Source of the DNA: Naegleria gruberi
Lineage: Eukaryota
Length of the DNA stretch: 64,000 nt
Assembly: GCA_000004985.1 (NCBI GenBank)
Contig: GG738883.1
Direction: 5' to 3' (one strand)
Shown here: piece after piece, positions 663 to 42,801 of the stretch
Layout of the letters: every line of letters starts with the position of its first letter
Numbering within the stretch: the first letter of the stretch is position 1
The notes under the pieces: model-generated
Seen by the model: only the letters and a program-made list of their open reading frames with translations
Told to the model about the DNA's origin: nothing
Database searches by the model: none
Program-made: the position numbers and the translations under genes

Positions 663-1805
663 ATGACAGCAGGAGGCTTACCTTCATCATCCTCTTCCGC
701 ATCATCCGATGATGGAAGTCAGGGTGCTAATTCTATTCTCCTCTCACTCTTTAATTTTTATATGAATAATAATTTTAATTCTTACAATAATAATTATAAT
801 TCAATAATGATGGAAAATTCCAATCAACAGCAACAACAATGCGATGCTGGTCAATATTGTTTGGCTGATGGGTTTTGCATTACGGAGGTATCACTCATTC
901 CTACTTGTATTTTAGCCTTGATCGTTGGTGTTTATACTTGTCATCAGATCAGGAGACGATTTGCACATGTTCGGGCAAGTTGGATGTATTCATTGACGTT
1001 TTTATGTTTTGCAATCATGATGACAGACTCAATGTTTGTTCATTGCTTTGTTCCAAGACCAGATCCACAAAGCAAGTATTTTGTAATTAGTATGATTGTA
1101 AATTTGATTAATCTGGGAGGAACTACATCAATTGCTGTTGGATTTTTCTTTTGTGGACTTGCTGATATTAAGTGGATTGATGGAGATTCATTCCAATCCA
1201 AGTTGGCTTATGGATGCTCTTTTGTGGCTGTGTTTTTGGCTTGGTATTTGGCTTTGATCAATCAATGGAAAAATATGTTTTTGATTTTATATGGTGGAAT
1301 GGTTGGGTTGTTTTGTGGCTTATATCTTGTCATGCAAATTATTCTATTGGCAAGAAGTACTCACCACGAAGGAGAATCCGAATTTAGAGCAATCATGTAT
1401 TTCATCTTGTGTGGTATCAGTGGTGCTGTTGGGTTAGGAGCTGTTTTCATTTGGAGAAATCAAATTTGTAGCATGATGGGTCCAGTTCTATCTCCATATC
1501 TTGGTCCTACTTTTGTTTGGTTTATTTTGAGTGATGTGGCAGTCTATTTCCTATTCAAATATGTAGAAGAAACCATGAGTTTGAGAGATACTAGTCAAGT
1601 TGAAGAAAAGAAGAAAAAAGTCTATCCAAACTATAATCCATATACCAATGTTCAATATGCACCAATGCAAAATCAATCCTACATTGGAAATGATGGAAAA
1701 GTCTACACTTACACAAAGGTTTCCCAAAACGAACACGAAGATATTGAGCTCATGCCAAACTCTATCTTACCAACTCACAGACATCACACTAACAATGTAT
1801 TTTAA
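663..1805 (+). CDS. hypothetical multi-pass membrane protein (380 aa) with N-terminal poly-S/N region
   Basis: ATG ORF. About 7–8 hydrophobic predicted TM segments follow an S/N-rich N-terminus. No known family recognised. Confidence 0.6.
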   Translation: MTAGGLPSSSSSASSDDGSQGANSILLSLFNFYMNNNFNSYNNNYNSIMMENSNQQQQQCDAGQYCLADGFCITEVSLIPTCILALIVGVYTCHQIRRRFAHVRASWMYSLTFLCFAIMMTDSMFVHCFVPRPDPQSKYFVISMIVNLINLGGTTSIAVGFFFCGLADIKWIDGDSFQSKLAYGCSFVAVFLAWYLALINQWKNMFLILYGGMVGLFCGLYLVMQIILLARSTHHEGESEFRAIMYFILCGISGAVGLGAVFIWRNQICSMMGPVLSPYLGPTFVWFILSDVAVYFLFKYVEETMSLRDTSQVEEKKKKVYPNYNPYTNVQYAPMQNQSYIGNDGKVYTYTKVSQNEHEDIELMPNSILPTHRHHTNNVF

Positions 1806-1840: not shown

Positions 1841-4228
1841 TTAGTAGAACTGCTTGAGTGGGGATTGTTTTTGAATGAGTTGTCTTATCAGTACATTTTC
1901 AAAGAGATTAGCAAGCTCATCATTACTCTTTGCAGAAACATAACAATATGGTACATTAAGTTGTTTAGCTCTTTCTTCCAAGCTGTGGTCAGTGGAATTT
2001 CCACTTCTATTTTGTACAATAACAATTGGTATTTGTGAAATATCAACTCTCTTAACAAACAAAATTTCTTCGATGAGCTCATTGATGGCAACAATGGAAT
2101 TCTTTTGCTCTTCGGAACAAACGAGAACAAATGCATTAGAACTAAAGATTCTTTCATCTAGATATTCTTCATCATCTCCATTCATGTCCAACAAGTTCAC
2201 TTTAACAACTTGATCATAAACTTTCAATTCCTTCAAATAGAGTTCTTCCTCAGAGTTTGGATCTTGCTCAGTAATAGTTCCTTGAACATAATTGTTGAGC
2301 AATCTTGATTTTCCTACAAGCGGTGGACCTCCAACAAAAACTTCAATTTCGTCTGGCAATGCCTTTGTGACGGTAATGTCACCAGAGCCACTAACTTCAA
2401 CCTTGACAGTAGAGCTTAATTTCTTTGATTGGAAGAGAAGAGTGACATGTTGATTTCCATTGACAATATTTGTGTTGTCCAATTTAGATGTATAATCAGT
2501 AGAATCTCCCAAAATGAATGAATAGGACAAGTCATTGATATATGAGACACCTTCTTGTTTACCTGTTGTGAAGGTGAACTTGAGTAAATTCTTAAAGAAG
2601 GAAACATTCTTTTCAATCTTTGATGGAGTTGCAACTTTTGGTGAAGTCAATTCAATAAGTTTAGCATCTGATGGAGTTGCTTGGTATCCGAAACTAGTAA
2701 GAAGAGCAATAATCTTTTCCTTTAAAGATGATGGACATTCCTCACTAATAATTCTATCGATGGACTTTTCAACAAAACGTGGAGATTCTGCCTTGACAGT
2801 CAATTGATGATTGGCCTTGGCGTTTAACAATAATCTAGCCAACTTGACTTGCCCAGATTCAATAGCTCTATGAAGTGGAGTTCTTCCACTGAAATCTCTA
2901 ACATCAACATTAGCATTATGTCTCAATAACCATTCAGCAATGAGATAACTCTTCAAATCAATTGCATAGTGGAGTGGATATCTTACTTCATCCTCAATAA
3001 CACATGGATCATTGACGTAGGCAGAGAGTTCCTTTTCTTGTTCAGAGAAAATTTCAAGTGCCAAATCAGTCAAATAAACATCTCTTTCATGTGAATAGTT
3101 TTCGGAATCTGATGAGAAATCCAAACCTTCATCTTCTCCGCCTTGGTCAACTTCCAAAGATTGCAAAACAATGAGCAAGAGATTTTGTTGTTTTGGAAGC
3201 TTTGAAGCTTTCAATCTCAATCCTTCTTCTTTCAATAACTTGTAGGCTTTTCTATTGTTTTCCATCAATGCAAAGAGTAAAAGATTGGCTTTGAAATGGG
3301 ATTCTTCATCGACAAGCATTTCAATTCTAGACAATTCTTCCTTTACAAAATGATCCTTCTTATTGATATGAATCAATTCTCCCAACAAGGAAGCATCTTC
3401 ATGTAAAATTGAGATGAAAAGTAACTTTTTAAAGCATTCTTCAGTAGGTCTATTAGTGGACAACAAGTCAAGAAGTAAATCTTGCTTATTTTCTCTGGCA
3501 TATTGTTTCAATTGATTTTCAACATCAACATTTTGAACAATTTTTGTTGTTTCAATTGGTTTTTGTTTCTTCATCAATTCTTTCAATAAGTAAATATTGA
3601 AAATGTCATTCACTTGATTGAAATCCCTAGCATTACAAGAAACGAAAGGCAATTTATATTGTAAAGCTTTCTTTTCAACAAGAGAGTGAACTGATCTTGC
3701 CTTTTGCATATCTTCTTCATCAAGAATATCCAAATACTTTTCTTGTGATTCTAAAATATCACTCTTATTGAGAATGATAACAATTGGTGTTTGATCAACA
3801 TTACCAATTGATTGTTGATTATCAAGATTTGTTGATGATCTATTGTTAATTTGATTGACAATTTCATCAATCATTGATTGACATTGTTCAGGATCATCAA
3901 GAACACTACAAACAATCAAGAAAGCATTTCCATCAGCAATAAATTGATGTTGCAATTGTTTAAATTCACTTCTACCTCCACATTCATTAATATTTAATGT
4001 AATACTATCATTATCAAAATAAATAGTTTTGTAGTAGTGTTCAGTTACTGTAGGAACATATTCTTCTGTAAATTGTTTGGAAATGTATTGATGAATAATT
4101 GATGACTTGCCACTTGCTTCACTTCCCAATACAACAAGTTCTAAATAATCTGATGGAAAGACAGGTGAAAATTTAGTACTTGTACGTGTTGTAGTGTTGG
4201 TTGTAGGTAAATGTAGACTATCTTCCAT
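1841..4228 (-). CDS. ankyrin-repeat protein with two Ras-like small-GTPase domains (N- and C-terminal), 795 aa
   Basis: N-terminal domain: P-loop VVLGSEASGKSS, effector-like YVPTV, LNKSD (NKxD) and SCNA (SAK-like). Middle: ankyrin repeats (HYAIDLKSYLIAEWLLRHNANVDVRDFSGRTPLHRAIESGQVKLARLLL). C-terminal domain: second P-loop GGPPLVGKS, DMNG (DxxG) and VSAKS. The G3 motif is degenerate in both domains (NECGG / QNRS). Confidence 0.8.
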   Translation of the reverse strand: MEDSLHLPTTNTTTRTSTKFSPVFPSDYLELVVLGSEASGKSSIIHQYISKQFTEEYVPTVTEHYYKTIYFDNDSITLNINECGGRSEFKQLQHQFIADGNAFLIVCSVLDDPEQCQSMIDEIVNQINNRSSTNLDNQQSIGNVDQTPIVIILNKSDILESQEKYLDILDEEDMQKARSVHSLVEKKALQYKLPFVSCNARDFNQVNDIFNIYLLKELMKKQKPIETTKIVQNVDVENQLKQYARENKQDLLLDLLSTNRPTEECFKKLLFISILHEDASLLGELIHINKKDHFVKEELSRIEMLVDEESHFKANLLLFALMENNRKAYKLLKEEGLRLKASKLPKQQNLLLIVLQSLEVDQGGEDEGLDFSSDSENYSHERDVYLTDLALEIFSEQEKELSAYVNDPCVIEDEVRYPLHYAIDLKSYLIAEWLLRHNANVDVRDFSGRTPLHRAIESGQVKLARLLLNAKANHQLTVKAESPRFVEKSIDRIISEECPSSLKEKIIALLTSFGYQATPSDAKLIELTSPKVATPSKIEKNVSFFKNLLKFTFTTGKQEGVSYINDLSYSFILGDSTDYTSKLDNTNIVNGNQHVTLLFQSKKLSSTVKVEVSGSGDITVTKALPDEIEVFVGGPPLVGKSRLLNNYVQGTITEQDPNSEEELYLKELKVYDQVVKVNLLDMNGDDEEYLDERIFSSNAFVLVCSEEQKNSIVAINELIEEILFVKRVDISQIPIVIVQNRSGNSTDHSLEERAKQLNVPYCYVSAKSNDELANLFENVLIRQLIQKQSPLKQFY

Positions 4229-4572
4229 TGTTTATTATACAGAGTGTGGGTGTTGATGTGTTTTTTTTAAGTTGAAGTAGATGGTTATGTAGGTAACAAT
4301 TGACTATTACATTGACATTTGATTAGTGAGGTACTGTTTATATTGAGAGGGTGTATTAGGTAATCAGTTGCTGAGAATAAGCAACACTCTTCTACGATCA
4401 CACTCATTGGTTATGATTCCTCAATAAATAGTTGAGTGGAATCAAACATTTGTCCTCAATTGGTAGTTAGATGATGTTTATTTACAAGGAATACTGATGA
4501 TTTTAAGTGGAAGAATATTGATGATTTGTGTTAAGTGGAAGAATTTAACTAAATATAAATGGAGTTAATTGC

Positions 4573-5139
4573 TTACGCATCTAAGGTGAATTGATGAGTC
4601 AATTCTTTGGTCTTTTCCAATTGAGCATTTGTTTCTAGATTTCTCTTGTACATTTCGTCTACTTCGTCCATCATCTTTTTCATATCATTGGTTCTCTCGA
4701 TAGCTGTTTCTTGCACTCTACCCATAAATTGATTAACAAGCTCGGAAAGCTTCATTGTAAAATCTAATCAAAACATTAAATGATCACTTGATAGTGACAA
4801 CTTACTATTCAATACACTTTCCATCTTTTCATGAATCTCGGAGAGTCTCTGTCTAGCATGTTGCATATTAGGATCCAAATAATCTGCAGCTGCTCCACCT
4901 GAGGCTGATGATCCTTGTTGAGTTTCAAAAGAATGATTTCCACCTTCATTAGTTTCCTCCAAAGTGCTTCCTTCCAATGAATTTTCATAGCGTTGTTGAT
5001 GTTGTTGTTGTGGATAATGAGAAGCTTCCTCACAGAATTGTTGTTCTCCCGATTCATAGAGATTAGAATCATTAACAAGACTAGAAGAATCATCACTTGC
5101 GAATTTTACTCGTTTAGTTGACTTTAAGATTTTGTTCAA
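4573..5139 (-). CDS. hypothetical coiled-coil protein, 2 exons (5139..4806, 4763..4573)
   Basis: ORFs 4768..5139 and 4573..4755 join in frame across a 42-nt GTAAGT...GATTAG intron (minus 4805..4764). A possible further 5' exon (5230..5165, MSTSLEKRTFQSTDMIQDDHQQ) would join through a 43-nt GTAAGT...TTAAAG intron. Confidence 0.55.
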
Positions 5140-5547: not shown

Positions 5548-6312
5548 TCAAAAACATCCAACCTCAATTATTAATCCAAAAAAAACACAGCACGGAATTG
5601 ATAAAAATATCATACCTACTGTAAGTCCAAAAAATGAAATGGTTATAAGAAATACCGAGAGTTTTCGATAAATTATTGAATAGGAAATTGCAAAGAAATA
5701 ATCATTGTCATCATTATAAAAACAAGGCACCTTTGCACCCGCATTCATTTCTACTGACATTGTGGAATTCTTAAATGTAGCAATCTTTGGGGAAGGAATA
5801 TAATTGGTTTCGTTCTCAATTTTGGTTACATTGCAACTACTTCCAACAAATGTTTCATTATATTTGGATGAGGGAAAGTATTTCTCAGTCGTAAAGAGTG
5901 TTGAATTATGAGTTGTTACAAACATTTTCACAAATAATCCTTTTTCCCACTCATCACAACCTCTACGTTGTTTAGCACAGTATGAGGCAATATAAAGATT
6001 GCAATCTGACACTTGGCATTCATGTTCCGGCGCTGTATGGACCAGAATACTAAAGTAAAGGAAAGTGAAGGAGACAATTATAAATACTATTAAAGAAATT
6101 ATTCCTATGATGATAACGTTGATGATATGTCCATGTAATCTCTTCTTATGTCGTAATAATAATTCTTTGTTCTTTTTCCAATTTTCTGTTTCGGCAACAA
6201 CAGAATAACAACTCTTGTTAATTTGTGCAAAACTTGCATATGAATCTATTGAAAGAAATCCAAGTATCAATGTTAATTCATCAGAATTTAATTTATGAAA
6301 GGGAAGTGTCAT
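5548..6312 (-). CDS. hypothetical F-box-like / single-TM protein
   Basis: First ATG at 6312 (the track ORF used an upstream TTG). F-box-like N-terminus LPFHKLNSDELTLILGFLSIDSYASF. Hydrophobic TM segment IINVIIIGIISLIVFIIVSFTFLYF. Confidence 0.5.
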   Translation of the reverse strand: MTLPFHKLNSDELTLILGFLSIDSYASFAQINKSCYSVVAETENWKKNKELLLRHKKRLHGHIINVIIIGIISLIVFIIVSFTFLYFSILVHTAPEHECQVSDCNLYIASYCAKQRRGCDEWEKGLFVKMFVTTHNSTLFTTEKYFPSSKYNETFVGSSCNVTKIENETNYIPSPKIATFKNSTMSVEMNAGAKVPCFYNDDNDYFFAISYSIIYRKLSVFLITISFFGLTVGMIFLSIPCCVFFGLIIEVGCF

Positions 6313-6832
6313 TAACAATTTCTATTGGATGCACGTTTAAATTATGGAGGGTGTGCTTAATTGTATTGGTGTTTTTTTGACATGCAAATCCATCTCATTT
6401 GACTTTTTAAAATATTCTTTAATATAAATGGAATATTTTAAACGAGTAGTATGCCACACAGTAACGCACTCACAGTAGTGGCATATTTTTTTGGGATGTC
6501 TACAAGTCAGATATACAGGTGTTGAGAAAATAAGAATTCATGGATTGGATGAGAAATACTCAGTTATTGTTGAAATTACTGAGTTCCCTTTTACATATTG
6601 GAACGATAAATTTCTTTCGTCACAACTACGTCATCATTTGCTTCAACGGATACTTTCCAATCCCAAAATAGAACCAAAAGGTGTATTACTTGCAGAGAAC
6701 AATATTTATTACGCGCTCCGAAGGCGGCAACTTCAAATAAAATCAAACAAAAAAAAAGAGTTCAAACCAAACAACGAAACTCTATTGTAAAATAGCTTAG
6801 AATATATTATTTAAAAAAATATTTGATCAAAA

Positions 6833-7527
6833 ATGTCGTTAGTGAGTGGTGATTATAGACCATGGGATTATGATATCCTTGTTAAAGTATTGATTATTGG
6901 TGATTCTGGAGTCGGGAAGAGTTGCTTACTTGTTCGTTATAGTGATGATGATTTCTTTGAATCACATCTTACAACTATTGGAGTTGATTTTAAAATTAAA
7001 ACACAAACATTACCAGATAATAGAGTAGCAAAGATACAGTTGTGGGATACTGCTGGTCAGGTAAGTTTTTATTTCTAATATTTTCTAATAATTTCAAATA
7101 GGAACGATTCAATTCTATTGTGTCTGGATATTATAGAAGTTCAAATGGTATTATGATTGTATTCGATTTGACTGATGAACAATCTTTTAGAAATGTCAGT
7201 AAATGGCTTGATCAAATTAAGAAACATGGTGATCCTTCGGGTCCAATGGTTCTTGTTGGAAATAAGGCTGATTTAACATCAAAGAGAGTTATTGATTCTC
7301 AATTAGGAAAGGAATTAGCCAAGAATTTAGGAATTGAATATATTGAAACGAGTGCAAAGAGTTCACAAGGTGTTGAACAAGCTTTTGACAAAATGTTACA
7401 AGCAGTTGTAAAGGCTCAAAACTATATTGAAAGTGGACCAAAGAAGGACGATAGATATTCGAATTCTTCATCTTCCCTGGTGGTGCAAGGACCAAAAACT
7501 CCTTCTGGTAGTACTTGTAATTGTTGA
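6833..7527 (+). CDS. Rab-family small GTPase, 2 exons (6833..7060, 7102..7527)
   Basis: [10 protein letters not shown]-loop; TIGVDF effector; WDTAGQ|ERF switch II split by a 41-nt GTAAGT...ATAG intron (7061..7101); GNKAD; ETSAKS; C-terminal CNC prenylation motif. Confidence 0.9.
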
Positions 7528-16506: not shown

Positions 16507-19144
16507 ATGAAACAGCTTACTCTGCTATTTATTTGCTTGCTACTTTCTGGTTGTTGTTTCTGCTTTGTGGATCCTTTCAAAATCAACTCTTCATATTATG
16601 TAGTTCAATCCTTGTCTGAGTCATCATTCGGAATGACTGCCTATCTGAAACTGTCCAATAACAGTGGTGGACCATACGGAAACGATATAGAAGAGTTAAA
16701 AGTCTCTATTCAATACAAATCTTCAAAAGTGTTAAATATCAAGATAACTGACAAGGAAGAAAAAAGATGGCAAGCTTCTCCCTTCGTTCTATCGAAAGAA
16801 CAATCAAAAGTTTCCTCTATGAGTACAAGTTTAGATTATAGTGTGGAAATGTCACAGGTTGGAGAAGAATTCTACTTTACAATTCTAAGAAAATCCTCAA
16901 GTATTCCAATATTCACAACGAAAAGGACTTGGTTTGTATTCAGTGACCAATATATTACATTAGGAACTCAATTATTCTCTTTACCAAATGGAGAACCTCC
17001 TTATTTGAGCGGTTTTGGTGAAAGAGTTGATAACATCTTTCTCAATATTACAAATAATGAATTTATAATGTGGAATAATGAGTAAGTTTTTAACCTTTTG
17101 GAAAATGTTTCTAAATTTTCAAAGTCATGACAATCAACCACATATGAATCTCTATGGAAGTCATCCATTCTTCCTCTATTCTGGACCAAGCTCTCCATCA
17201 TTTGGTGTTTTCCTTCTCAATAGTAATGCTATGAGTGTGAGAACTGAATTTAACAATCAAAACAAGTATTTACAATATCAAGTGATTGGTGGCGTTTTGG
17301 ATTTTTACTTCTTCCTTGGACCTTCTTCGCAAGATGTCATTAAACAATATCATTCAATTATTGGAAAACCATACTTGCCTCCAAAGTTTGCACTTGGATT
17401 TCATCAATGTAGATGGGGATACAATAGTTTGGATGAAATTAAGAAAGTAGTTGCTGGATATGAGGCCAATAATTTACCATTGGATGCAATTTGGACAGAT
17501 ATTGATTATATGGACAAGTATAGAGATTTCACATTTGATCCTGATCGTTTTCCAATTCAAGACATGATACAATTTGTTTCTGATTTGCATAAGAAAGGTA
17601 AAAAGTATATTCTCATTATCGATCCTGGTATTCCAGTTGTAAATTTGAATCAGGAAAAGTATGAACCTTTAGAATTGGGACTTTCTCTCGATATTTTCAT
17701 CAAGAATGGCAATAATAATTCCTATGTGAATAGAGATGTCTGGCCTGGCCAATGCTACTTCCCAGATATGACCAACCCCAAATTCAAGGACTATTTCTGG
17801 AAGCCACTCATTCACAAATTCCTCTCCACCTTAAATATTGATGGATTGTGGACAGATATGAATGAACCAGCTGTATTGAAAACCTACACACCCAATCAAA
17901 ATAAGTGGAACTATCCTCCATTCGTACCAAGATCGCCAGCTGTTCACGATCCTAATGAACCTATTTTCCATCGAACTATTGACATGGATTCGAGAATGCA
18001 CGCCTCAATCCATTACAATGTCCACAATTTATACAGTCATTTGGAGTCAATTGCAACATCAGAAGCTCTACAAGATTTCTATGGAAAGAGATCTTTCGTA
18101 TTAACTAGAAGTAGCTTTGCTGGAAGTGGATCTCATGTTTCTCATTGGACAGGCGATAATGAGTCAACATACGAAAGCATGAAGAGTTCAATTCCATCAA
18201 TTGTTATGAATGGAATGTTTGGTTTTTCACATGTTGGATCTGATATTGGTGGATTCTATTTGAACACAACTAAGGAACTTCTTATTAGATGGATGCAATT
18301 AGGATCCATGTATCCATTCTCACGTAACCATAATGCACGTGGAACTATTCCTCAAGAGCCATATGCCTTTGATAAGGAAACTACAGACATTTCAAGAAAA
18401 TTCCTTCAATTAAGATATCAACTTATTCCATATTTGTATACACAAATTGCACTAGTTAGTAGAGATGGAGGTTCAGTTGCAAAACCACTTTCTTTCGTAT
18501 TTCCAGATGACAGACAGTGTTATCAAATAGAAACTCAACTCATGTTAGGAGATTCCTTAATCATTGCTCCAGCATTAAATCCATCACAGTCAATGGTCAA
18601 TGCCTACCTTCCTTACAATGCTATTTGGTATGATTACTTGACAGGTAAAAGAATTACCAAAACGGGAGGTCTATATTTCTCATTACCTTCTCCTCTTGAT
18701 TCAATGCCAATTATCATGAAAGGTGGAAGTATCATTCCTTTACAAACTCCATCGCTTAATACTTTACAACAAGAATTTAATCCATATCAATTGAGAATTG
18801 CACTCAATCAAGAACAGCAGGCAAGGGGAGAGTTGTGGCTTGATGATGGTGAAAGTTTGGGAACAATTGAGAAGAAACTTTATACATTACTCAAATATGA
18901 CATGAAAAATAATGGAAAAGTTTACAAGTTGACTTGTGAAAGGTTAATTGGAGGATATGATGAAAGAAATTTGAGTTTGAATGGAATTACCATCTACGGC
19001 ATTGAACAACAACAAATTTCGTTCATTTCAATTAATAATCAACCAGTAGATTCGTATAACTTTGATCCTTCGAATGGTTTATTAGAAATTAACAATATTC
19101 ACTCTGAAATTTCTTCAATTTCTGTAGTTTTACAATTTGCCTAA
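16507..19144 (+). CDS. glycoside hydrolase family 31 alpha-glucosidase (lysosomal acid alpha-glucosidase-like), 2 exons (16507..17081, 17125..19144)
   Basis: Signal peptide MKQLTLLFICLLLSG. 43-nt GTAAGT...CAAAG intron. GH31 catalytic motifs DGLWTDMNEP (nucleophile Asp) and HWTGDNEST. Homology to GAA/sucrase-isomaltase is visible throughout. Confidence 0.9.
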
Positions 19145-35540: not shown

Positions 35541-38500
35541 ATGTCAGACCATAAGTTGAAAAAAATGTTTGTTGGTAGCCCATGTCAATACCTCCTTATT
35601 GGGGTAATTGTTTTGCATGCATGCTTGTTTGCTTGTTGCTATCAACCACAGTATGACATGTCTGTTGTGGCAGGTGGTGGATCTTCAATAGGTGATGGAT
35701 TATTAGCAACACAAGCATTGTTATCAGTACCAAGTGGTGGAATTGTTTCAAATTCTGATATTATATTCTGTGATACTAATAATCATAGAATACGTAAGAT
35801 AGATGTGAATGGTATCATGTCAACTATTGCTGGTACTGGTGTTGCAAATTATTCTGGTAAGTTTATAGACTTCACATTGTTCAACAACTTTGGTCAACTC
35901 ACATGCATGTGCAATTCAAATAGGAGATGGAGGAGCCGCAGTTAATGCACAACTAAACTCACCTCAAGGAATTGGAATACTATCAACTGGTGCCATTGTA
36001 TTTTCAGATACATTAAACCACTGTATTAGAAAGATTGAAAATGGAATTATTTCAACATTAGCAGGTAATGGATCACCAGGATTGACAGGTAAGTTTTATA
36101 TGCATACACATGATCTTCTAAAAACCTTGTAGTAGTTGGATCAGCAATCAGTGCTCAATTAAACACACCAACTGCTCTAATTGTTGCAAGTAATGACATT
36201 TATTTTGCTGAAAGTGGAAACCATCTCATTAGAAGAATTAGTTCTTCTGGCATGTTAACAATCTACATTGGAGAGTCAAGTGGAACATCTGGTAGTTCTG
36301 ATACAGGTACAGCTGGAGCATCATTCAAAATGAATACACCAATGGGAATTGTTTTCCATGCAGGAAATTTATACTTTTCAGATTCCAAGAATTATAGAAT
36401 TTGTGTAACCTCTGGTGCATTGATTTCTGTTTTCAAAGCATCATTGACAAGTGAACCACTTGGATTAGCTAGTTATAATGGTAATCTGTATATTGCCATG
36501 AAGGGAAACAAGGTTTTACAAGCAAAGAATTCGAATACAATCATTGATTTTGCTGGAAGTGGAACGAGTGGATATTCAGGAGATGGAGGATTGGGTACAT
36601 CTGCTTTATTGAATGGTCCATCTGCTTTGGCTTTTGATTCGAGTGGAAATTTGCTCATTTCAGATTCTTTCAATAATAGAATTAGAAAAGTTGCAAATGG
36701 AACTATTTCAACTTTGGCTGGAAATAGCAATAGAAATTTTGGAAATGGTGTTTTGGGAACATTGGCTTCATTTTCCTCTCCAAATAGTGTTTATTATACA
36801 GGAAATGATGATTCAGCAGGTGGCATTTTGATTTCTGACACAAATAATCATGTTTTAAGAAGATTGAAAGATGGATACATTTATAATGTGATTGGAAATG
36901 TTGCAATTCCTGGAAACAACAATGGAAATGGAGTGAATGTCAATGATGCAACAGTGAATTCACCTCCATTTGTCATGAAGAGATTTGGTGATTTAATTTA
37001 CTTTTTAGATAATAATGGATGTGCATTGAGAAGAATTGAATCGAATAATGTTTTAACACTTGTGGTAGGAAGTTGCAATACTGCCAATCAAGATTATTTC
37101 CTTTCCAAATCATTTGACATTTCCAATGATGGAATTATTTATATTGCTGATTATTACAATAATAGAATTGCCAAGTTTGAGATTAATAATTCCACTTTGA
37201 CAACCCTTGTTGGACGTTCCTTAAAAGGATTCTTAGATGGAATTGGGTCGAATGCCTTACTCAACTATCCTGAAAGTCTTATTATTGGACCTGATAATAT
37301 GATTTACTTTTCAGATCGTGATAATAATGCAATTAGATCTGTGTCCACAAGTTCTGCTTTGGTTACAACTCTGGCCGGTGACAGATTTAATGGATTTCTT
37401 GGAGATGGTGGTCCAGCTAAATCATCAAGACTTGATTCACCAGGACCTATTCAGTTGACATTAGGTGGTGAGATAATTTTCATGGACAGAGGAAATCAAA
37501 GAATTAGAAAGATTACAAAATATGGAAATATTTTTACTATTTATGGAAATGGATCAACAAGTGTTTTTAAAGATGCTAATGGTTTAACACTTGGTGGAAG
37601 TGGTGAAATTTACATTGCAGATAGTGGAAACAATCTCATCAAAATGTTATCTGCTGCCAAATGTTCAAATGGAACTTTTTACAATTCTTCATCATTTGAA
37701 TGTCAATGTACAGCTGGTTTCTATGGAGAGAATTGCTTGGAATATGATTGCTCAGGAATCAATTGGAGAAACTCGTCCGTTTGTTCAGGAAGAGGTTCAT
37801 GTATTGCGAAAGAAAAGTGTTCTTGCTCTGCCAATTTCACAGGAAGTAATTGTGAAGAATACTATTGTTATGGAGTTAATTCAGTGAATAGCAGTGTTTG
37901 TTCATCCAATGGTCAATGCACAGCTCCAGATAATTGTACCTGTTCATTTGGAACATTTGGGTTGAATTGTGAAAATGCTTATTGTCAAGGAATTGTCTCT
38001 TGGAATGAAACTGTTTGTAATTCGAGAGGAAAATGCATTGGCTACAACAAGTGTACATGCAATAATGGATTTTATGGCAATAATTGTGAATTTTACAATT
38101 GTTTCGGAGTTAAAAACACTGACAGCTCAATATGTTCAGGAAATGGTATTTGTTCCAAAATTGATAATTGCACTTGTTTTGATGGATATTTTGGAAATAA
38201 CTGCTCTGATTTCAATTGTGTTGGAGAGCAGTATATTGGAAAGAACTTGTGTTTGAATAATGGCTCATGCACTGGTCCAGGTGATTGTAAATGTTTGCCT
38301 GAATGGGGTGGCAACATTTGTCAACATGTCAAATGTTTTAACAAGACAGCTGTCGATTCAAATGTTTGTTCATCACATGGTCAATGTTTGTCTTTTAATA
38401 ATTGTTCATGTGATCCAAGATGGATTGGCAGTGATTGTGGCGTGACCACTTGTTTTGGTCAATTATCAAATGATTCGAATAGAGTTTGTTCATCATATGG

Positions 38501-41500
38501 TCAATGTTTAAATCCAGATCAATGCTCTTGTAATAATGGATACAGAGGTGATGAATGTGAATATAGAGTGTGTTATGATTTAATTCACACAGATCCAAAT
38601 GTTTGCTCCTCACATGGTCAATGTGAATCACCAAATAATTGTAAATGTGAAAATGGTTTTGTTGGGGAGAATTGTCAATATCACCAAGTTTATTTAGACA
38701 TTTCAAATGCATTGATTTATTCATATTTTGATTCACTTTTAAATATTTCAACAACAATTGATGGAGGTGATCAAGTATTGTTGAGTAGTGAATGTCAAGA
38801 TTTATTCGAAAGTTCAGAATTGATCAAATTGGGAGAAGCTGATTTGATATCCTGTTATTGGACACCAAATTATTTCAAAATCAAATTGGGATATAATCAC
38901 ATGATTGAACATTTATCCACATTGAAACTGAATTCAAATTTCAATATTTCACTTCAAGTCAATTCAAATTCTTCTTTAATTTTACTCAATCAGCGAACAT
39001 TTTCCTCTTCAATGGATACTTTACTTTTATACATTCCATCCAATCAAGATTTTATCATCAAATCCAGCAGTGATGATTATTATCATACATTTAAGAAAGT
39101 TTCAAAAAGTTGGACATGTGAAAACTGTCCTCAGCCACTTGTCAATTATTTAACAAATTATGAAAATAAGAGTATGATTTTAATACCAACTTCATTGCTG
39201 AATAGCATTCCATTAGATTCTTCATATTCTAAAATTCTTTCACTTAAATATTCATCCATGAATTCAATTCAAAAATCATTGACATCAAGCGACAAGACAA
39301 GAATTGAATCTAATAAGAATTTACCTCCCTCTTTCACATGGCATGGGGATAATGTAAAGGATACACAATTTAAATGTGTTGGACATAATTGTATTATTGA
39401 AAGTTCATTGAATTCAATGAATAGTTCACTTTCATTTACATTCTCTGGATTTTTCAGTTTATTGAATTCACTCTTTTCACAAAAACAAATGTTTAGATTG
39501 GTAAATGTTTATAATAATGAATTGGTGGACAGTGAATATTCATCCAATGCACAAATAGTTGGATTTCAATTGAAAACCTATGTTTCCACTTCACTTTCTT
39601 ATTATTTCTCATATTCAACATTTGATAGATTGGATCATGTTTTGACAAATGTGAATAGAACTCTATCTCTTGATGATTCTAAATTTACAATTTCAATATT
39701 CAATCAAGATCCTTTCATTTCAAGTTTCACATTACCTGAATATTTCACATTCAATTACCAATTTTATCAAATTAATTCAATTGACAATAATTTAAGTAGT
39801 AGTGAAAAAACATTGAATATAGATGTTGAAAAATTGAATTTATCAGAAGGAATGTATTTAGTGAACTTGACACTAACAGTTTCCAAGTCATATGTCACAA
39901 TTCCATATTATTATTTTGGATTTATTCATTTTTATGCTCAATCAAATGTTCCAAAATTAACAATTGATCAATTACCTGCTATTTATCCTTCCAAAAAGGA
40001 TTTACATTTGAAAGTATTGATTCAATCATCAAGTGCAATTCAAAATTATAAATGGAAATTAAAAGAAGGTTTAGTGAAAGAAAGGAAAATAATTGGACAA
40101 TTTTTGGAAAGTTCACAATTTACTCAACTCACGTCTAATACATACAAGAGTGAAATTATAATTAATAGTCAATATTTATTGGAAGGTGAATTTATTTCAT
40201 TTGATTTTTCAGTTTCAAATATGAATGGAATGTCAAATGTTTCATTATCAACTAGAATTGATGAATCTCCAAGATTTTCATGTGAATATTTCAATTTAAA
40301 GAATGAATTTACAAATTATGCATTTGATTCACTTCTTTCCATTTCATGTTTCAATTTACCTGAAGAACCAATTTCAAGTTTTAATTTTGAATTTCATTCC
40401 ATTTATGGAAAGAGATTAAATATCATTTCCAATACATTGAAAAAGAATATCATTACAAGAATACCAATGTACTCATTTGAAGAAGGTAAAATCAATCTTG
40501 TTGTAAAATTAGTGAATAGATATGGCTCAGTTTCACAAATCTCAAAAACTATTTCAGTTTTACCTCCATTAACTATTTACAATTCACAAAATTCAATTCT
40601 ATCAAGATTTAATTATTTTAAACAATCTTTTTATAATTTGAAGTTGAATGAGCCATTGAGAATTGATACTGCTCATTCAATTTATTCCTTAATGAGTATT
40701 CTCATTCAGAACGAAACCATTTCGAATATAAAAGGACAATTAGTGAATGAATTAACAATGGATCAATTATCAACATTTAATTCATTGTTGAAAGATATGA
40801 TTAATCAATTGAAAAGTATTCAATCGTTGACATATAAGGTTGATGAAAAGATAATTCAATTGACACTTCCAATAATTTCACAAATTTATTCGATTCTGGA
40901 TAATTTATCATTGGATGAAAGTTGGATTTCAGATATTTCAAGTTGGCTTGATTGGATTTATTCTGGAATGTCAAATGCCAAACAATATTATTCAGAAATA
41001 TTATTAGAAACTGTACTTTCCACTGAACATTATTCAGAATTGAAAATTATTCAAAATATACTTTCAAAAAGATATTCTAATAGATTGGATAAACAAGAAT
41101 TAATTTCAAAATATAGAGCTCAATATTTAATGTTGACTAAACTGAACGAATCATCAGATGATTCATCTTTTGAAATTTATCAAATAGATATTGCTTCTCA
41201 ATTAAATGGCAAGTCAATTACAACAAACATCAATCAAGATATTCAAATTCAAGCCATACTTCCATCAGATTTAACAAGTCAAGTGTCAAATATTGAAGAT
41301 AATTCACAATTATTTTACTCTTCATCATTAATTTCAAATGACAAGACATTGAATAATATTTTAACAAATAGACCTATTTTGGAATTATCAATTTTTTCAA
41401 AAGATGGTTCATTGACAAGTGTGAATAATTTACAGAATCCAATTCAATTGAAATTCAAAAATTTATTTACAGATTACAAAATCTATACTAATTTATCATG

Positions 41501-42801
41501 TGTTTATTTTGATGCTTCATCAAATGGATGGTCAACCAATGGAATTACAGCCAAATCAACGATAATCAAACAAGAAAATGGAAAATTGTATTTTGAAATG
41601 GAATGTAACACAACTCACTTGTCTTTATTCTCAGTTCAAGAATATAATTTCATTTCAATTCCAGTTGTTATCAACTCAAGTCAACCTAGAAATGAAATAG
41701 ATACAAATTTAGGATTAATTCTTGGATTGGCACTTGGCATTTCTATTCCAGTTGTGTTAATGATAGTGTTTGTTATCATTATCATTGTGTTATCTGTATT
41801 TGTGTGGAAATTAAAAACTAAGAGAACACGATATGATATTGAAATGACAGGAACTGATTTTCCTGATTCGAGTATGTTCCTGACACCACTTGTTAGCGTT
41901 TCAGGAAGTTCAAATGAAAGTTTCAATCCACTTTCAAGATATTTAGATCTAGTTAGAATTGGTCAAGGAGCATTTGGCTCAGTTTTCAAAGCAATGGATT
42001 CAAAAACAAATACAATGAAAGCAATCAAAGTGATGAGATATCAAACCAATGAAGAATTGAATGGATTTATGAAAGAAGGAACTCAATTAATGAATGTCAG
42101 TCATCCAAATATTTTGAAAGTGAATGATTTCTTTATTAGTCAAGATAATTTATTGTGTATTGATATGGATTTTTATGAAAAGGGTGATTTGGTTCAATTG
42201 ACCAATGAATCTTTCATTTGCTCAGAGAAGATGTTGCTTCAAATTATTTATCAAATGTTAAATGCATTGAATTATATTCACAACTCAATGAAACTCATTC
42301 ACAGAGATATCAAACCATCAAATATTTTCATCAAATCAATCGATAATGATAATATTCAAATTGTAATTGCTGATTTTGGATTGGCAAGGGCAGATCAAGG
42401 TTCTGCTCACAAATCATATGCTGGAACTCCTTTATTTATGGTATGTTATTTATCAATACTTTGGCATGTCAATTCTAACATATATTACTGTTAACTTGGA
42501 GGAATTATAGTCACCTGAACTTGGATATGGCGGAAAGTATTATTTCAATACAGATATTTACAGTTTAGGAGTCACTCTTTATCAAATCATGACCAAAGAT
42601 ACTCAAACTTCAATTAGTCAACTATTAATCACAAAAGATAAACTTGAAGTGAATACAATTCTCAAACAAAAATTTGATGAGCGAAGAATTTACTCATCTG
42701 AAGTTATTGATTTGGTCATTTCAATGTTAGAAAAGGATTTGACAATCAGACCACAAGCAACAACTCTCCTTAGCAATCATCTTTTCAAATCATTCCAATA
42801 A
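35541..42801 (+). CDS. giant single-pass receptor Ser/Thr kinase with NHL-repeat + EGF-like (tenascin-type) ectodomain, >=5 exons (35541..35856, 35924..36088, 36133..42440, 42511..42801)
   Basis: Signal-anchor N-terminus. About 10 NHL repeats are split by a 67-nt and a 44-nt GTAAGT intron. About 14 Cys-rich EGF-like repeats (C.C..G..G..C) follow, then a ~1000-aa S/N-rich extracellular region and TM segment GLILGLALGISIPVVLMIVFVIIIIVLSVFVW. The kinase has IGQGAFGSVFKA, HRDIKPSNIFI and ADFGLAR. A 70-nt GTATGT...TATAG intron splits GTPLFM|SPE. Confidence 0.85.

What the first reader, a model, noticed from the sequence alone, without database searches (positions are those of the whole stretch)
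1841..4228. Single polypeptide with two degenerate Ras-like GTPase domains bracketing ankyrin repeats
Both ends of this 795-aa protein have P-loop / NKxD / SAK-type small-GTPase signatures. In both, the switch II DxxGQ motif is altered (NECGGRSEF and DMNGDDE), so the catalytic Gln is missing. At least two ankyrin repeats separate the two domains. Tandem GTPase domains are known in a few specialised families, but this is not the Roco (LRR–Roc–COR–kinase) layout. It suggests a GTP-binding scaffold or pseudo-GTPase.
Basis: partly seen in the sequence, partly recalled or inferred. Interest (0 to 1): 0.5.

Follow-up and report, generated by a model that had tools for sequence, protein, structure and literature searches.

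The report
Naegleria double-Ras ankyrin protein (Ras12)
This is a real Naegleria gruberi gene for a protein with two Ras-type domains around an ankyrin-repeat stack; a 2021 genome paper already lists it, and the only addition here is sequence evidence that the second Ras domain is losing its nucleotide-binding motifs while staying under selection.

Summary
Window 1841-4228 (-) is one intact 795-aa ORF of Naegleria gruberi. Pfam Ras matches both ends on their own (83.5 and 50.5 bits; cut-off 21.6), with ankyrin repeats between them.

It is not new. Herman et al. 2021 (BMC Biol 19:142, Suppl. Table 7) list this gene, XP_002674645.1 with a corrected model identical to this ORF. [quoted passage not shown] No function is known.

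What I add:
- The N-terminal domain keeps all nucleotide-binding motifs unchanged in five orthologues. It carries Glu/Ser at Ras position 12 and Arg/Lys at position 61, so I predict a GTP-binding, hydrolysis-poor switch.
- The C-terminal domain is decaying differently in each lineage: NKxD has become NRSG here and INEA/ISEA in N. fowleri/lovaniensis, whose P-loop is also disrupted. It is still under purifying selection (dN/dS about 0.10), so it is a probable pseudoGTPase.
- The ankyrin stack has at least five repeats (about six or seven helix pairs), not two.
- A β-domain with no fold match precedes the second G domain.
- Full-length relatives were found only in Naegleria and Willaertia.

The proposed mechanism is inferred from sequence, not shown. 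Interest is low to moderate.

The parts
1841..4228 (-). Complete single-exon CDS (795 aa plus stop) of the N. gruberi Ras12 orthologue (corrected model of XP_002674645.1)
   Evidence: ORF listing. 100% identity to P0001 over 97% of the query. N-terminus identical to the manually corrected model in Herman et al. Suppl. Table 7. Orthologues start the same way.
4154..4171 (-). Invariant N-terminal peptide FSPVFP (residues 20-25), role unknown
   Evidence: Invariant in all five orthologues. AF2 pLDDT below 50.
3566..4147 (-). N-terminal Ras-family G domain (residues 28-221). It has the canonical six strands and five helices, an extra helix after G4 (156-164) and a disordered loop (132-147).
4103..4126 (-). 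N-domain P-loop GSEASGKS (residues 35-42). Glu37 sits at Ras position 12.
   Evidence: Alignment to KRas. Orthologue motif table: Glu in four Naegleria sequences, Ser in Willaertia.
3971..3985 (-). N-domain G3 / switch II ECGGR (residues 82-86). Ras Asp57 is Glu and Gln61 is Arg.
   Evidence: E82, G84 and G85 are invariant; position 86 is Arg or Lys in all orthologues.
3758..3769 (-). N-domain G4 NKSD (residues 154-157), intact
   Evidence: N154, K155 and D157 are invariant.
2807..3532 (-). Ankyrin-type helical repeat stack (residues 233-474, about six helix pairs). Only the last two repeats (411-474, window 2807-2998) match Pfam. Residues 360-382 form a disordered acidic insert.
2693..2761 (-). 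Helical hairpin (residues 490-512) carrying the invariant E..CP motif; possibly a capping seventh repeat
   Evidence: AF2. E496, C498 and P499 are invariant.
2366..2662 (-). All-β domain with no fold match (residues 523-621, seven or eight antiparallel strands), directly ahead of the second G domain
1859..2350 (-). C-terminal Ras-fold domain (residues 627-790), a probable pseudoGTPase
   Evidence: Pfam Ras 50.5 bits. Best PDB sequence matches are Rap2A, Di-Ras2 and R-Ras2. Canonical Ras topology in AF2. Motif decay across orthologues. dN/dS 0.10.
2306..2329 (-). C-domain P-loop GPPLVGKS (residues 634-641). Pro-Pro-Leu sit at Ras positions 11-13.
   Evidence: In N. fowleri/lovaniensis the loop has a 4-aa insertion and reads ...SLVCKS.
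2174..2188 (-). C-domain G3 DMNGD (residues 681-685), with Asp at Ras position 61; followed by the invariant EEYLDER (687-693)
2000..2011 (-). C-domain degenerate G4 NRSG (residues 740-743) in place of NKxD
   Evidence: Alignment to Rap2A. Orthologue table: NKSD/NKTD in P0004 and Willaertia, INEA/ISEA in N. fowleri/lovaniensis, NRSS in L001.

Best explanation
The ORF encodes the N. gruberi orthologue of 'Ras12', a soluble multidomain Ras-family protein found so far only in Naegleria and Willaertia.

Shown:
- Layout: a short conserved peptide (FSPVFP), Ras-like G domain 1, an ankyrin-type stack of at least five repeats, a helical hairpin, an all-β domain with no fold match, then Ras-fold domain 2.
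- There is no lipid-anchor motif and no transmembrane segment.

Inferred:
- G domain 1 is a working nucleotide-binding switch. Its P-loop, switch-I Thr, NKxD and G5 are conserved.
- It carries Glu/Ser at Ras position 12 and Arg/Lys at position 61, the positions whose substitution blocks intrinsic and GAP-stimulated hydrolysis in Ras. I therefore expect it to be mostly GTP-bound or very slow. It would then be controlled by protein abundance, modification or intramolecular contacts rather than by a classical GEF/GAP cycle.
- G domain 2 is a pseudoGTPase. It keeps the Ras fold and a conserved switch-II-like surface (EEYLDER) under purifying selection, but its guanine-binding motifs have been lost in different ways in different lineages. 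It would act as a structural or protein-binding module.
- The very highly conserved ankyrin stack is the main partner-binding surface, so the whole protein would be a GTP-state-dependent adaptor or scaffold.
For: Architecture:
- Pfam on the separated pieces.
- AF2 model with mean pLDDT 73 and pTM 0.57.

N-terminal domain:
- G35, S39-S42, P59, T60, E82, G84, G85, N154, K155, D157 and A200 are invariant in five orthologues down to Willaertia.
- Switch I reads FTEEY[VI]PT in all five orthologues (F53, T54, E55, E56, Y57, P59 and T60 invariant).
- Position 12 is E/E/E/E/S and position 61 is R/K/K/K/R.
- One of the two best PDB matches printed is an NRas chain that itself reads Arg at position 61 (AGREEY in place of AGQEEY).
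- Literature: GTPases lacking Gly12 (Rnd, RhoH) do not cycle and are constitutively active (PMC13236570). LRRK2 Roc naturally carries Arg at the Gln61-equivalent position (PMC4781896).

C-terminal domain:
- G4 is NRSG (N. gruberi), NRSS (L001), INEA/ISEA (N. fowleri/lovaniensis) and NKSD/NKTD (P0004, Willaertia).
- G3 is DMNGD, DMNSD, DVNGD or DMAAH.
- N. fowleri/lovaniensis have a P-loop insertion with Gly changed to Cys, and a 5-aa deletion that removes the Phe28-equivalent residue.
- G5 is SAK, SPK, SAS, SSK or SAR.
- No orthologue combines DxxG with NKxD.
- Even so, dN/dS against a close Naegleria relative is 0.10, as low as in the ankyrin repeats (0.12) and well below the β-domain (0.36).
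- EEYLDER is invariant.

Soluble protein: the maximum 19-residue hydropathy is 1.19, and the C-terminus is ...SPLKQFY with no CaaX motif.

Precedent for a GTPase domain and pseudoGTPase domains in one chain: p190RhoGAP (PMC5593906).
Against: - Nothing biochemical was tested. Nucleotide binding and hydrolysis are inferred from motifs only.
- Arg at position 61 does not abolish hydrolysis in LRRK2 Roc, and Rap (Thr61) is hydrolysed with a GAP Asn thumb, so the N-terminal domain could be an active GTPase.
- The N. gruberi C-terminal domain still has GxxxxGKS, DxxG and SAK, so it may retain weak or altered nucleotide binding.
- dS is about 1.1, close to saturation, so the dN/dS values are approximate.
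- The relative position of the domains in the AF2 model could not be inspected. No coordinates or PAE are returned, and the alignment has only five sequences.
- No partner, localisation or expression data exist for this gene. It is absent from the differential-expression tables of Herman et al..
Confidence: 0.55

Rival explanations
1. Both G domains are working GTPases that use non-canonical catalysis. The two domains, or two protein copies, pair up like G proteins activated by nucleotide-dependent dimerisation (Roc, Der/EngA, Rag-type pairs). Arg/Lys86 or a residue from the partner domain would replace Gln61.
For: - Arg at the Gln61 position co-exists with GTP hydrolysis in LRRK2 Roc.
- Pfam Roc is the second-best match for the N-terminal domain, 47.5 bits.
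- The N. gruberi, P0004 and Willaertia C-terminal domains retain GxxxxGKS.
- pTM 0.57 for a 795-aa chain is compatible with some fixed inter-domain packing.
Against: - In N. fowleri/lovaniensis the C-domain P-loop carries an insertion and loses the Gly before Lys, and NKxD is gone entirely. The protein is nevertheless conserved there, so its function cannot require nucleotide binding by domain 2.
- Motif residues differ even between close N. gruberi-clade species.
- There is no COR or KH domain.
- Herman et al. report that Roco proteins are absent from Naegleria.
Confidence: 0.2
2. Both domains are pseudoGTPases. The N-terminal domain binds nucleotide, if at all, only as a permanent structural cofactor and never switches. 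The protein is a purely static scaffold built around the ankyrin stack.
For: - The catalytic Gln is missing in both domains, and position 12 is not Gly.
- The ankyrin-type region 236-410 is the most conserved part, 43% invariant columns against 24-28% in the G domains.
Against: - Strict conservation of switch I (FTEEYVPT), the Thr35-equivalent residue and the Gly60-equivalent residue in the N-terminal domain is what a conformational switch needs. A static cofactor site would not need it.
- That conservation contrasts sharply with the drifting motifs of the C-terminal domain.
Confidence: 0.2
3. Artefact: two neighbouring genes read through as one, a decaying pseudogene, or a chance ORF.
For: The NCBI gene model for this locus is wrong at its 5' end, so annotation here is imperfect.
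Against: - The frame stays open for 2.4 kb in DNA of 33% G+C.
- The same collinear single-chain layout occurs in N. fowleri, N. lovaniensis, an unnamed Naegleria and Willaertia.
- dN/dS is 0.19 over the C-terminal 364 codons.
Confidence: 0.02

Closest known systems
Ras12 of Naegleria fowleri and the corrected model of XP_002674645.1 (Herman et al. 2021, BMC Biol 19:142, Suppl. Table 7)
   Same: It is the same gene or orthologue group. [quoted passage not shown] The corrected N. gruberi sequence starts MEDSLHLPTTN..., identical to the window ORF.
   Different: The paper only lists the architecture. It gives no analysis of the G motifs, of the pseudoGTPase state of domain 2, of the β-domain or of the extended ankyrin stack, and no function.
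p190RhoGAP-A/B (N-terminal GTPase domain plus pseudoGTPase domains pG1 and pG2; Stiegler & Boggon 2017, PMC5593906)
   Different: p190 has FF domains and a RhoGAP catalytic domain and no ankyrin repeats. There is no detectable orthology. p190 pG1 is experimentally nucleotide-free, whereas here that is only predicted.
Miro (mitochondrial Rho GTPase)
   Different: Miro has EF-hand pairs between its domains and a C-terminal membrane anchor. Here there are ankyrin repeats plus a β-domain, no EF-hand match and no transmembrane segment. Herman et al. list Naegleria's own Miro separately.
Roco proteins (LRRK2, DAPK1: ankyrin repeats plus Roc-COR)
   Same: A Ras-like G domain is embedded in a large repeat-containing protein. 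LRRK2 Roc naturally has Arg at the Ras Gln61-equivalent position; a T1343G substitution was tested alongside R1398Q as a 'Ras-like' change. That T1343 is the Gly12 equivalent, that DAPK1 combines ankyrin repeats with Roc, and the detailed Roco domain orders, are from my own knowledge.
   Different: There is no COR domain next to either G domain, no LRR and no kinase. Pfam Ras outscores Roc (83.5 against 47.5 bits). Roco proteins are reported absent from Naegleria.
Atypical GTPase-deficient small GTPases (Rnd1-3, RhoH)
   Same: They have natural substitutions at the Gly12 position (and, for RhoH, in the G3/switch II motif) with intact nucleotide-binding motifs. This gives constitutively GTP-bound proteins regulated by abundance (PMC13236570).
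   Different: Those are stand-alone, lipid-anchored Rho-family proteins. This is a Ras-family domain inside a 795-aa soluble multidomain chain.
AGAP / centaurin-gamma (GTPase-like domain, PH, ArfGAP, ankyrin repeats)
   Different: There are no PH or ArfGAP domains here, and AGAP has no second G domain.

Membership tests
Ras family small GTPase (Pfam PF00071) | G-domain sequence matches the Ras profile above the curated cut-off | tested here: met
   N-terminal domain 83.5 bits and C-terminal domain 50.5 bits, scanned separately; cut-off 21.6. Best PDB sequence relatives are Ras-proper members: K/NRas, Rit1 and M-Ras for the first, Rap2A, Di-Ras2 and R-Ras2 for the second.
Ras family small GTPase (Pfam PF00071) | G3 motif DxxGQ with the catalytic Gln61 | tested here: not met
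   The N-terminal domain reads ECGGR (Asp57 to Glu, Gln61 to Arg/Lys). The C-terminal domain reads DMNGD (Gln61 to Asp). Both were read from alignments to Ras and Rap2A.
Ras family small GTPase (Pfam PF00071) | G1 GxxxxGK[ST], G4 NKxD and G5 SAK nucleotide-binding motifs | tested here: inconclusive
   N-terminal domain: all present and conserved (GSEASGKS, NKSD, CNAR). C-terminal domain: G1 and G5 present in N. gruberi, but G4 is NRSG. G1 is disrupted in N. fowleri/lovaniensis.
Ras family small GTPase (Pfam PF00071) | Stand-alone protein of about 21 kDa with a C-terminal CaaX or other lipid anchor | tested here: not met
   The chain is 795 aa, ends ...SPLKQFY, has no Cys near the C-terminus, does not start Met-Gly, and has no transmembrane segment.
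Ras family small GTPase (Pfam PF00071) | Binds and hydrolyses GTP | not testable with these tools
   Needs purified protein.
Ras12 orthologue group of Herman et al. 2021 | Sequence identity with the listed N. gruberi entry and one-to-one orthology with N. fowleri Ras12 | tested here: met
   The ORF is 100% identical to P0001 = XP_002674645.1 over the shared part. The visible ~400 residues of the corrected model in Suppl. Table 7 are identical from Met1. The N. fowleri sequence P0002/P0023 is 61% identical over 98% of the query.
pseudoGTPase (GTPase fold with defective nucleotide binding and/or catalysis) | Retains the G-domain fold | tested here: met
   The AF2 topology for residues 627-790 is β1-α1-β2-β3-α2-β4-α3-β5-α4-β6-α5, mostly at pLDDT 75-91. 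Pfam Ras match.
pseudoGTPase (GTPase fold with defective nucleotide binding and/or catalysis) | G motifs altered in ways expected to impair binding or catalysis, and not conserved among orthologues | tested here: met
   Motif table for the C-terminal domain across six taxa.
pseudoGTPase (GTPase fold with defective nucleotide binding and/or catalysis) | Experimentally shown lack of nucleotide binding or hydrolysis | not testable with these tools
   Needs mant-nucleotide binding, thermal shift and HPLC assays.
Roco (Roc-COR) proteins | Roc G domain immediately followed by a COR domain | tested here: not met
   No COR match at E <= 1. The N-terminal domain is followed by ankyrin-type repeats and the C-terminal domain ends the protein. 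Roc scores below Ras.
Miro | EF-hand pairs between two G domains, and a C-terminal transmembrane anchor | tested here: not met
   No EF-hand match. Maximum 19-residue hydropathy is 1.19.
Der/EngA tandem GTPases | Two adjacent MMR_HSR1-type G domains plus a C-terminal KH-like domain | tested here: not met
   MMR_HSR1 matches are weak (20.7 and 17.3 bits for the separate domains) and far below Ras. No KH-like match. The two domains lie about 400 residues apart.
Ankyrin-repeat proteins | Tandem 33-residue helix-turn-helix repeats matching the Ank profiles | tested here: met

The most novel reading that the evidence does not exclude
The C-terminal pseudoGTPase is a built-in regulator or partner of the GTP-locked N-terminal Ras domain, held in place by the ankyrin stack and the β-domain. 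This would be an intramolecular GTPase-pseudoGTPase pair. The different lesions in Willaertia, N. gruberi and N. fowleri would then record stepwise conversion of a working G domain into a pseudoenzyme, and the β-domain would be a new fold.
Probability: 0.2. Interest if true: 0.55.

Novelty: already known. Interest (0 to 1): 0.27.

Why it matters
As a discovery it matters little, because the gene and its double-Ras-plus-ankyrin layout are already published.

The added analysis gives a small, testable case study in how pseudoenzymes arise. One domain of a conserved protein loses its nucleotide-binding motifs by different routes in sister lineages, while its fold and one surface stay under strong selection. 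The other domain naturally carries the substitutions (positions 12 and 61) that make human Ras oncogenic.

N. fowleri has the orthologue, so any function found in N. gruberi would carry over to the pathogen. Nothing links this gene to virulence.

Tried and rejected
1. Searching for more distant full-length relatives.
- A profile of the five orthologues was run against 1.84 billion representative proteins. It found only the Naegleria cluster, Willaertia and one 152-aa fragment. The rest of the 150 listed hits were giant ankyrin-repeat proteins, so relatives scoring below about 205 bits would have been hidden.
- A word-indexed search with the Willaertia protein found nothing new.
- A metagenome DNA scan with the alignment found nothing.

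2. Searching with the β-domain alignment A2. It returned no hits at all, not even the query proteins themselves, so this null result says nothing.

4. Ras8 (XP_002681592.1, 'Ras with ankyrin repeats') as a possible parent or paralogue. The 399 residues visible in the supplement show no similarity to this protein (best E 1.4). Rejected as far as it could be tested.

5. Internal duplication of the two G domains. They are 25% identical (50 bits), no closer than each is to canonical Ras or Rap. The shared C-terminal 'L..L..KQ.P' tail resembles the end of Ras helix α5 in general (my own knowledge). Unresolved, and not claimed.

7. Expression or function data. The N. fowleri gene id appears only in the GTPase catalogue table. 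No paper in the library cites the accession numbers.
Full report
**Source and gene model**

The window is nuclear DNA of the amoeboflagellate Naegleria gruberi. The 795-aa product of window 1841-4228 (-) is 100% identical over 97% of its length to XP_002674645.1 / EFC41901.1, 'ras family small GTPase [Naegleria gruberi]'. The window is 27-38% G+C and neighbouring genes have short GT..AG introns.

The deposited model has 865 aa. It joins an upstream ORF (window 4768-5139) to the gene and skips the first 27 codons. Four orthologues begin like the uninterrupted ORF, with M...TKFSPVFPSDY. They are N. fowleri (P0002/P0023), N. lovaniensis (P0003), an unnamed Naegleria from metagenomes (P0004) and Willaertia magna (P0005). 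The manually corrected model published by Herman et al. starts MEDSLHLPTTNTTTRTSTKFSPVFPSDY, exactly as in the window.

**Checking the observation**

- The whole protein matches Pfam Ras in two stretches.
- Scanned separately, residues 1-235 score 83.5 bits and residues 601-795 score 50.5 bits against Ras; the cut-off is 21.6.
- Roc, Arf and MMR_HSR1 score lower. AAA-type families stay below their cut-offs.
- The middle piece matches five ankyrin profiles at residues 411-474.
- By sequence against the PDB, the N-terminal domain is closest to K/NRas, Rit1 and M-Ras (E about 4e-14). The C-terminal domain is closest to Rap2A, Di-Ras2 and R-Ras2 (E about 5e-10). Both are therefore Ras-proper relatives.
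- Those alignments fix the motif equivalences. NECGGR puts Glu82 at Ras Asp57 and Arg86 at Gln61. DMNGD puts Asp685 at Gln61.
- One point in the finding is wrong: the C-terminal domain has NRSG where NKxD should be.

**Already in the literature**

Herman et al. re-annotated all Ras-superfamily genes of N. gruberi and N. fowleri (BMC Biol 2021, PMC8296547; preprint 10.1101/2020.01.16.908186). [quoted passage not shown] Its N. gruberi orthologue is given as XP_002674645.1*, where the asterisk marks a corrected model, with extra domains 'ANK repeats, Ras'.

Their supplementary text mentions combinations of Ras-superfamily domains with ankyrin repeats among 'novel domain architectures' in Naegleria. 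It also states that Roco proteins are absent from Naegleria while Miro, RhoBTB and CPRas are present. No motif analysis or function is given. The gene is not in their differential-expression tables, and no paper in the library cites its accessions. The architecture is therefore known but uncharacterised.

**Anatomy**

An AF2 model built from the five-orthologue alignment has mean pLDDT 73 and pTM 0.57. It gives:
- A disordered N-terminus (residues 1-27) that contains the invariant peptide FSPVFP.
- A canonical Ras fold at 28-221, with an extra helix right after G4 (156-164) and a disordered loop (132-147).
- Six helix pairs from 233 to 469, plus a helical hairpin at 490-512.
- An all-β domain at 523-621, pLDDT about 90.
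- A second canonical Ras fold at 627-790.

**The two G domains behave differently in evolution**

In the N-terminal domain, the following are the same in all five orthologues, including Willaertia at 36% domain identity:
- the P-loop (G35, S39-S42);
- the Phe28-equivalent residue (F53);
- switch I (FTEEY[VI]PT, with the Thr35-equivalent T60);
- E82, G84 and G85;
- NKxD (N154, K155, D157) and A200.

Only the catalytic positions differ from Ras. Position 12 is Glu (Ser in Willaertia) and position 61 is Arg or Lys.

In the C-terminal domain the motifs drift:

| Motif | N. gruberi | L001 (close relative) | N. fowleri / lovaniensis | P0004 | Willaertia |
|---|---|---|---|---|---|
| G1 | GPPLVGKS | GPPLVGKS | 4-aa insertion, ...SLVCKS | GPPLVGKS | GSQMVGKS |
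| Phe28 equivalent | Ile | Ile | deleted | Tyr | Phe |
| G3 | DMNGD | DMNSD | DVNGD | DMAAH | DMAAH |
| G4 | NRSG | NRSS | INEA / ISEA | NKSD | NKTD |
| G5 | SAK | SPK | SAS | SSK | SAR |

No orthologue combines an intact DxxG with an intact NKxD.

The domain is nevertheless not decaying as a whole. It is 60-62% identical within Naegleria and 42% identical to Willaertia, and the switch-II-like EEYLDER (687-693) is invariant.

I recovered the 3' part of the orthologue from a metagenome contig of a close N. gruberi relative (L001), after removing a 47-nt intron. Nei-Gojobori dN/dS against the window is 0.10 for the C-terminal G domain, 0.12 for the last ankyrin repeats, 0.36 for the β-domain and 0.46 for the hairpin. 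dS is about 1.1, so these figures are approximate. The most invariant part of the whole protein is the non-canonical repeat region 236-410, with 43% invariant columns.

**Most likely mechanism (inferred)**

The N-terminal domain has what a nucleotide-dependent switch needs. It lacks Gly12 and Gln61, the two residues whose substitution blocks intrinsic and GAP-stimulated hydrolysis in Ras; one of the two best PDB matches printed is an NRas chain that itself reads Arg at position 61.

Natural proteins of this type include Rnd and RhoH, which are constitutively GTP-bound and controlled by abundance (PMC13236570). LRRK2 Roc, with Arg at the Gln61-equivalent position, is a counter-example that still hydrolyses GTP slowly (PMC4781896). 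I therefore predict a GTP-bound, hydrolysis-poor switch, with moderate confidence.

The C-terminal domain fits the pseudoGTPase concept defined on p190RhoGAP, which also combines a true G domain with Ras-fold pseudo-domains (PMC5593906). It keeps its fold and one surface, while nucleotide contacts are dispensable. Together with the highly conserved ankyrin stack, this points to a soluble adaptor whose partner binding depends on the state of the first domain.

The rival readings cannot be excluded without experiments: non-canonical active GTPases working as a pair, or a fully static scaffold. An annotation or pseudogene artefact is excluded by the conserved collinear ORF and the low dN/dS.

**Distribution**

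Full-length relatives were found only in Naegleria and Willaertia, both in the family Naegleriidae, Heterolobosea. The searches were limited in sensitivity, as set out under Tried and rejected.

**Verdict**

However, the architecture of this very gene is already published, so novelty is 'already known'. The new points are incremental and untested: asymmetric motif decay, purifying selection on the pseudo-domain, the extended ankyrin stack and the β-domain with no fold match. Interest is low to moderate.

Noticed in passing
window 4130-5139 (-): The deposited NCBI model XP_002674645.1 (865 aa) splices an upstream ORF (4768-5139) onto this gene and drops the first 27 codons. Orthologues and the corrected model of Herman et al. 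support the single-exon ORF starting at 4228. What the upstream 123-aa ORF is (no Pfam hit) remains open.
   Followed up: partly
L001 642-688 (ENA ERZ27254845 contig k141_1651363): A close N. gruberi relative has a 47-nt phase-0 intron (GTAAGT...CATAG) inside helix α1 of the C-terminal G domain, between GKSRL and LNNYV. The N. gruberi window sequence has no intron there. This is an intron presence/absence difference between close species.
   Followed up: partly
window 6833-7527 (+): A canonical Rab-type GTPase gene is split by a 41-nt intron (7061-7101, GTAAGT..AG) directly after WDTAGQ. The protein ends ...STCNC, a Rab-type CXC prenylation motif. It makes a useful internal contrast because its DTAGQ motif is intact.
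   Followed up: partly
window 36252-42494 (+): A 2080-aa ORF combines NHL repeats, teneurin-type EGF repeats and a C-terminal protein-kinase domain, which looks like a receptor kinase. Herman et al. list many tenascin/teneurin/NHL proteins in Naegleria.
   Followed up: no
window 17078-19144 (+): A glycoside hydrolase family 31 gene (Pfam E 2.8e-115).
   Followed up: no
window 5548-6318 (-) and 663-1805 (+): Two ORFs (256 aa and 380 aa) with hydrophobic, membrane-like segments and no Pfam match. By eye, the first has an F-box-like N-terminus (LPFHKLNSDELTLILGFLS...).
   Followed up: no
window 4154-4171 (-), residues 20-25: The peptide FSPVFP just ahead of the first G domain is invariant from Naegleria to Willaertia, although AF2 predicts it to be disordered. 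It may be a short linear binding motif.
   Followed up: no
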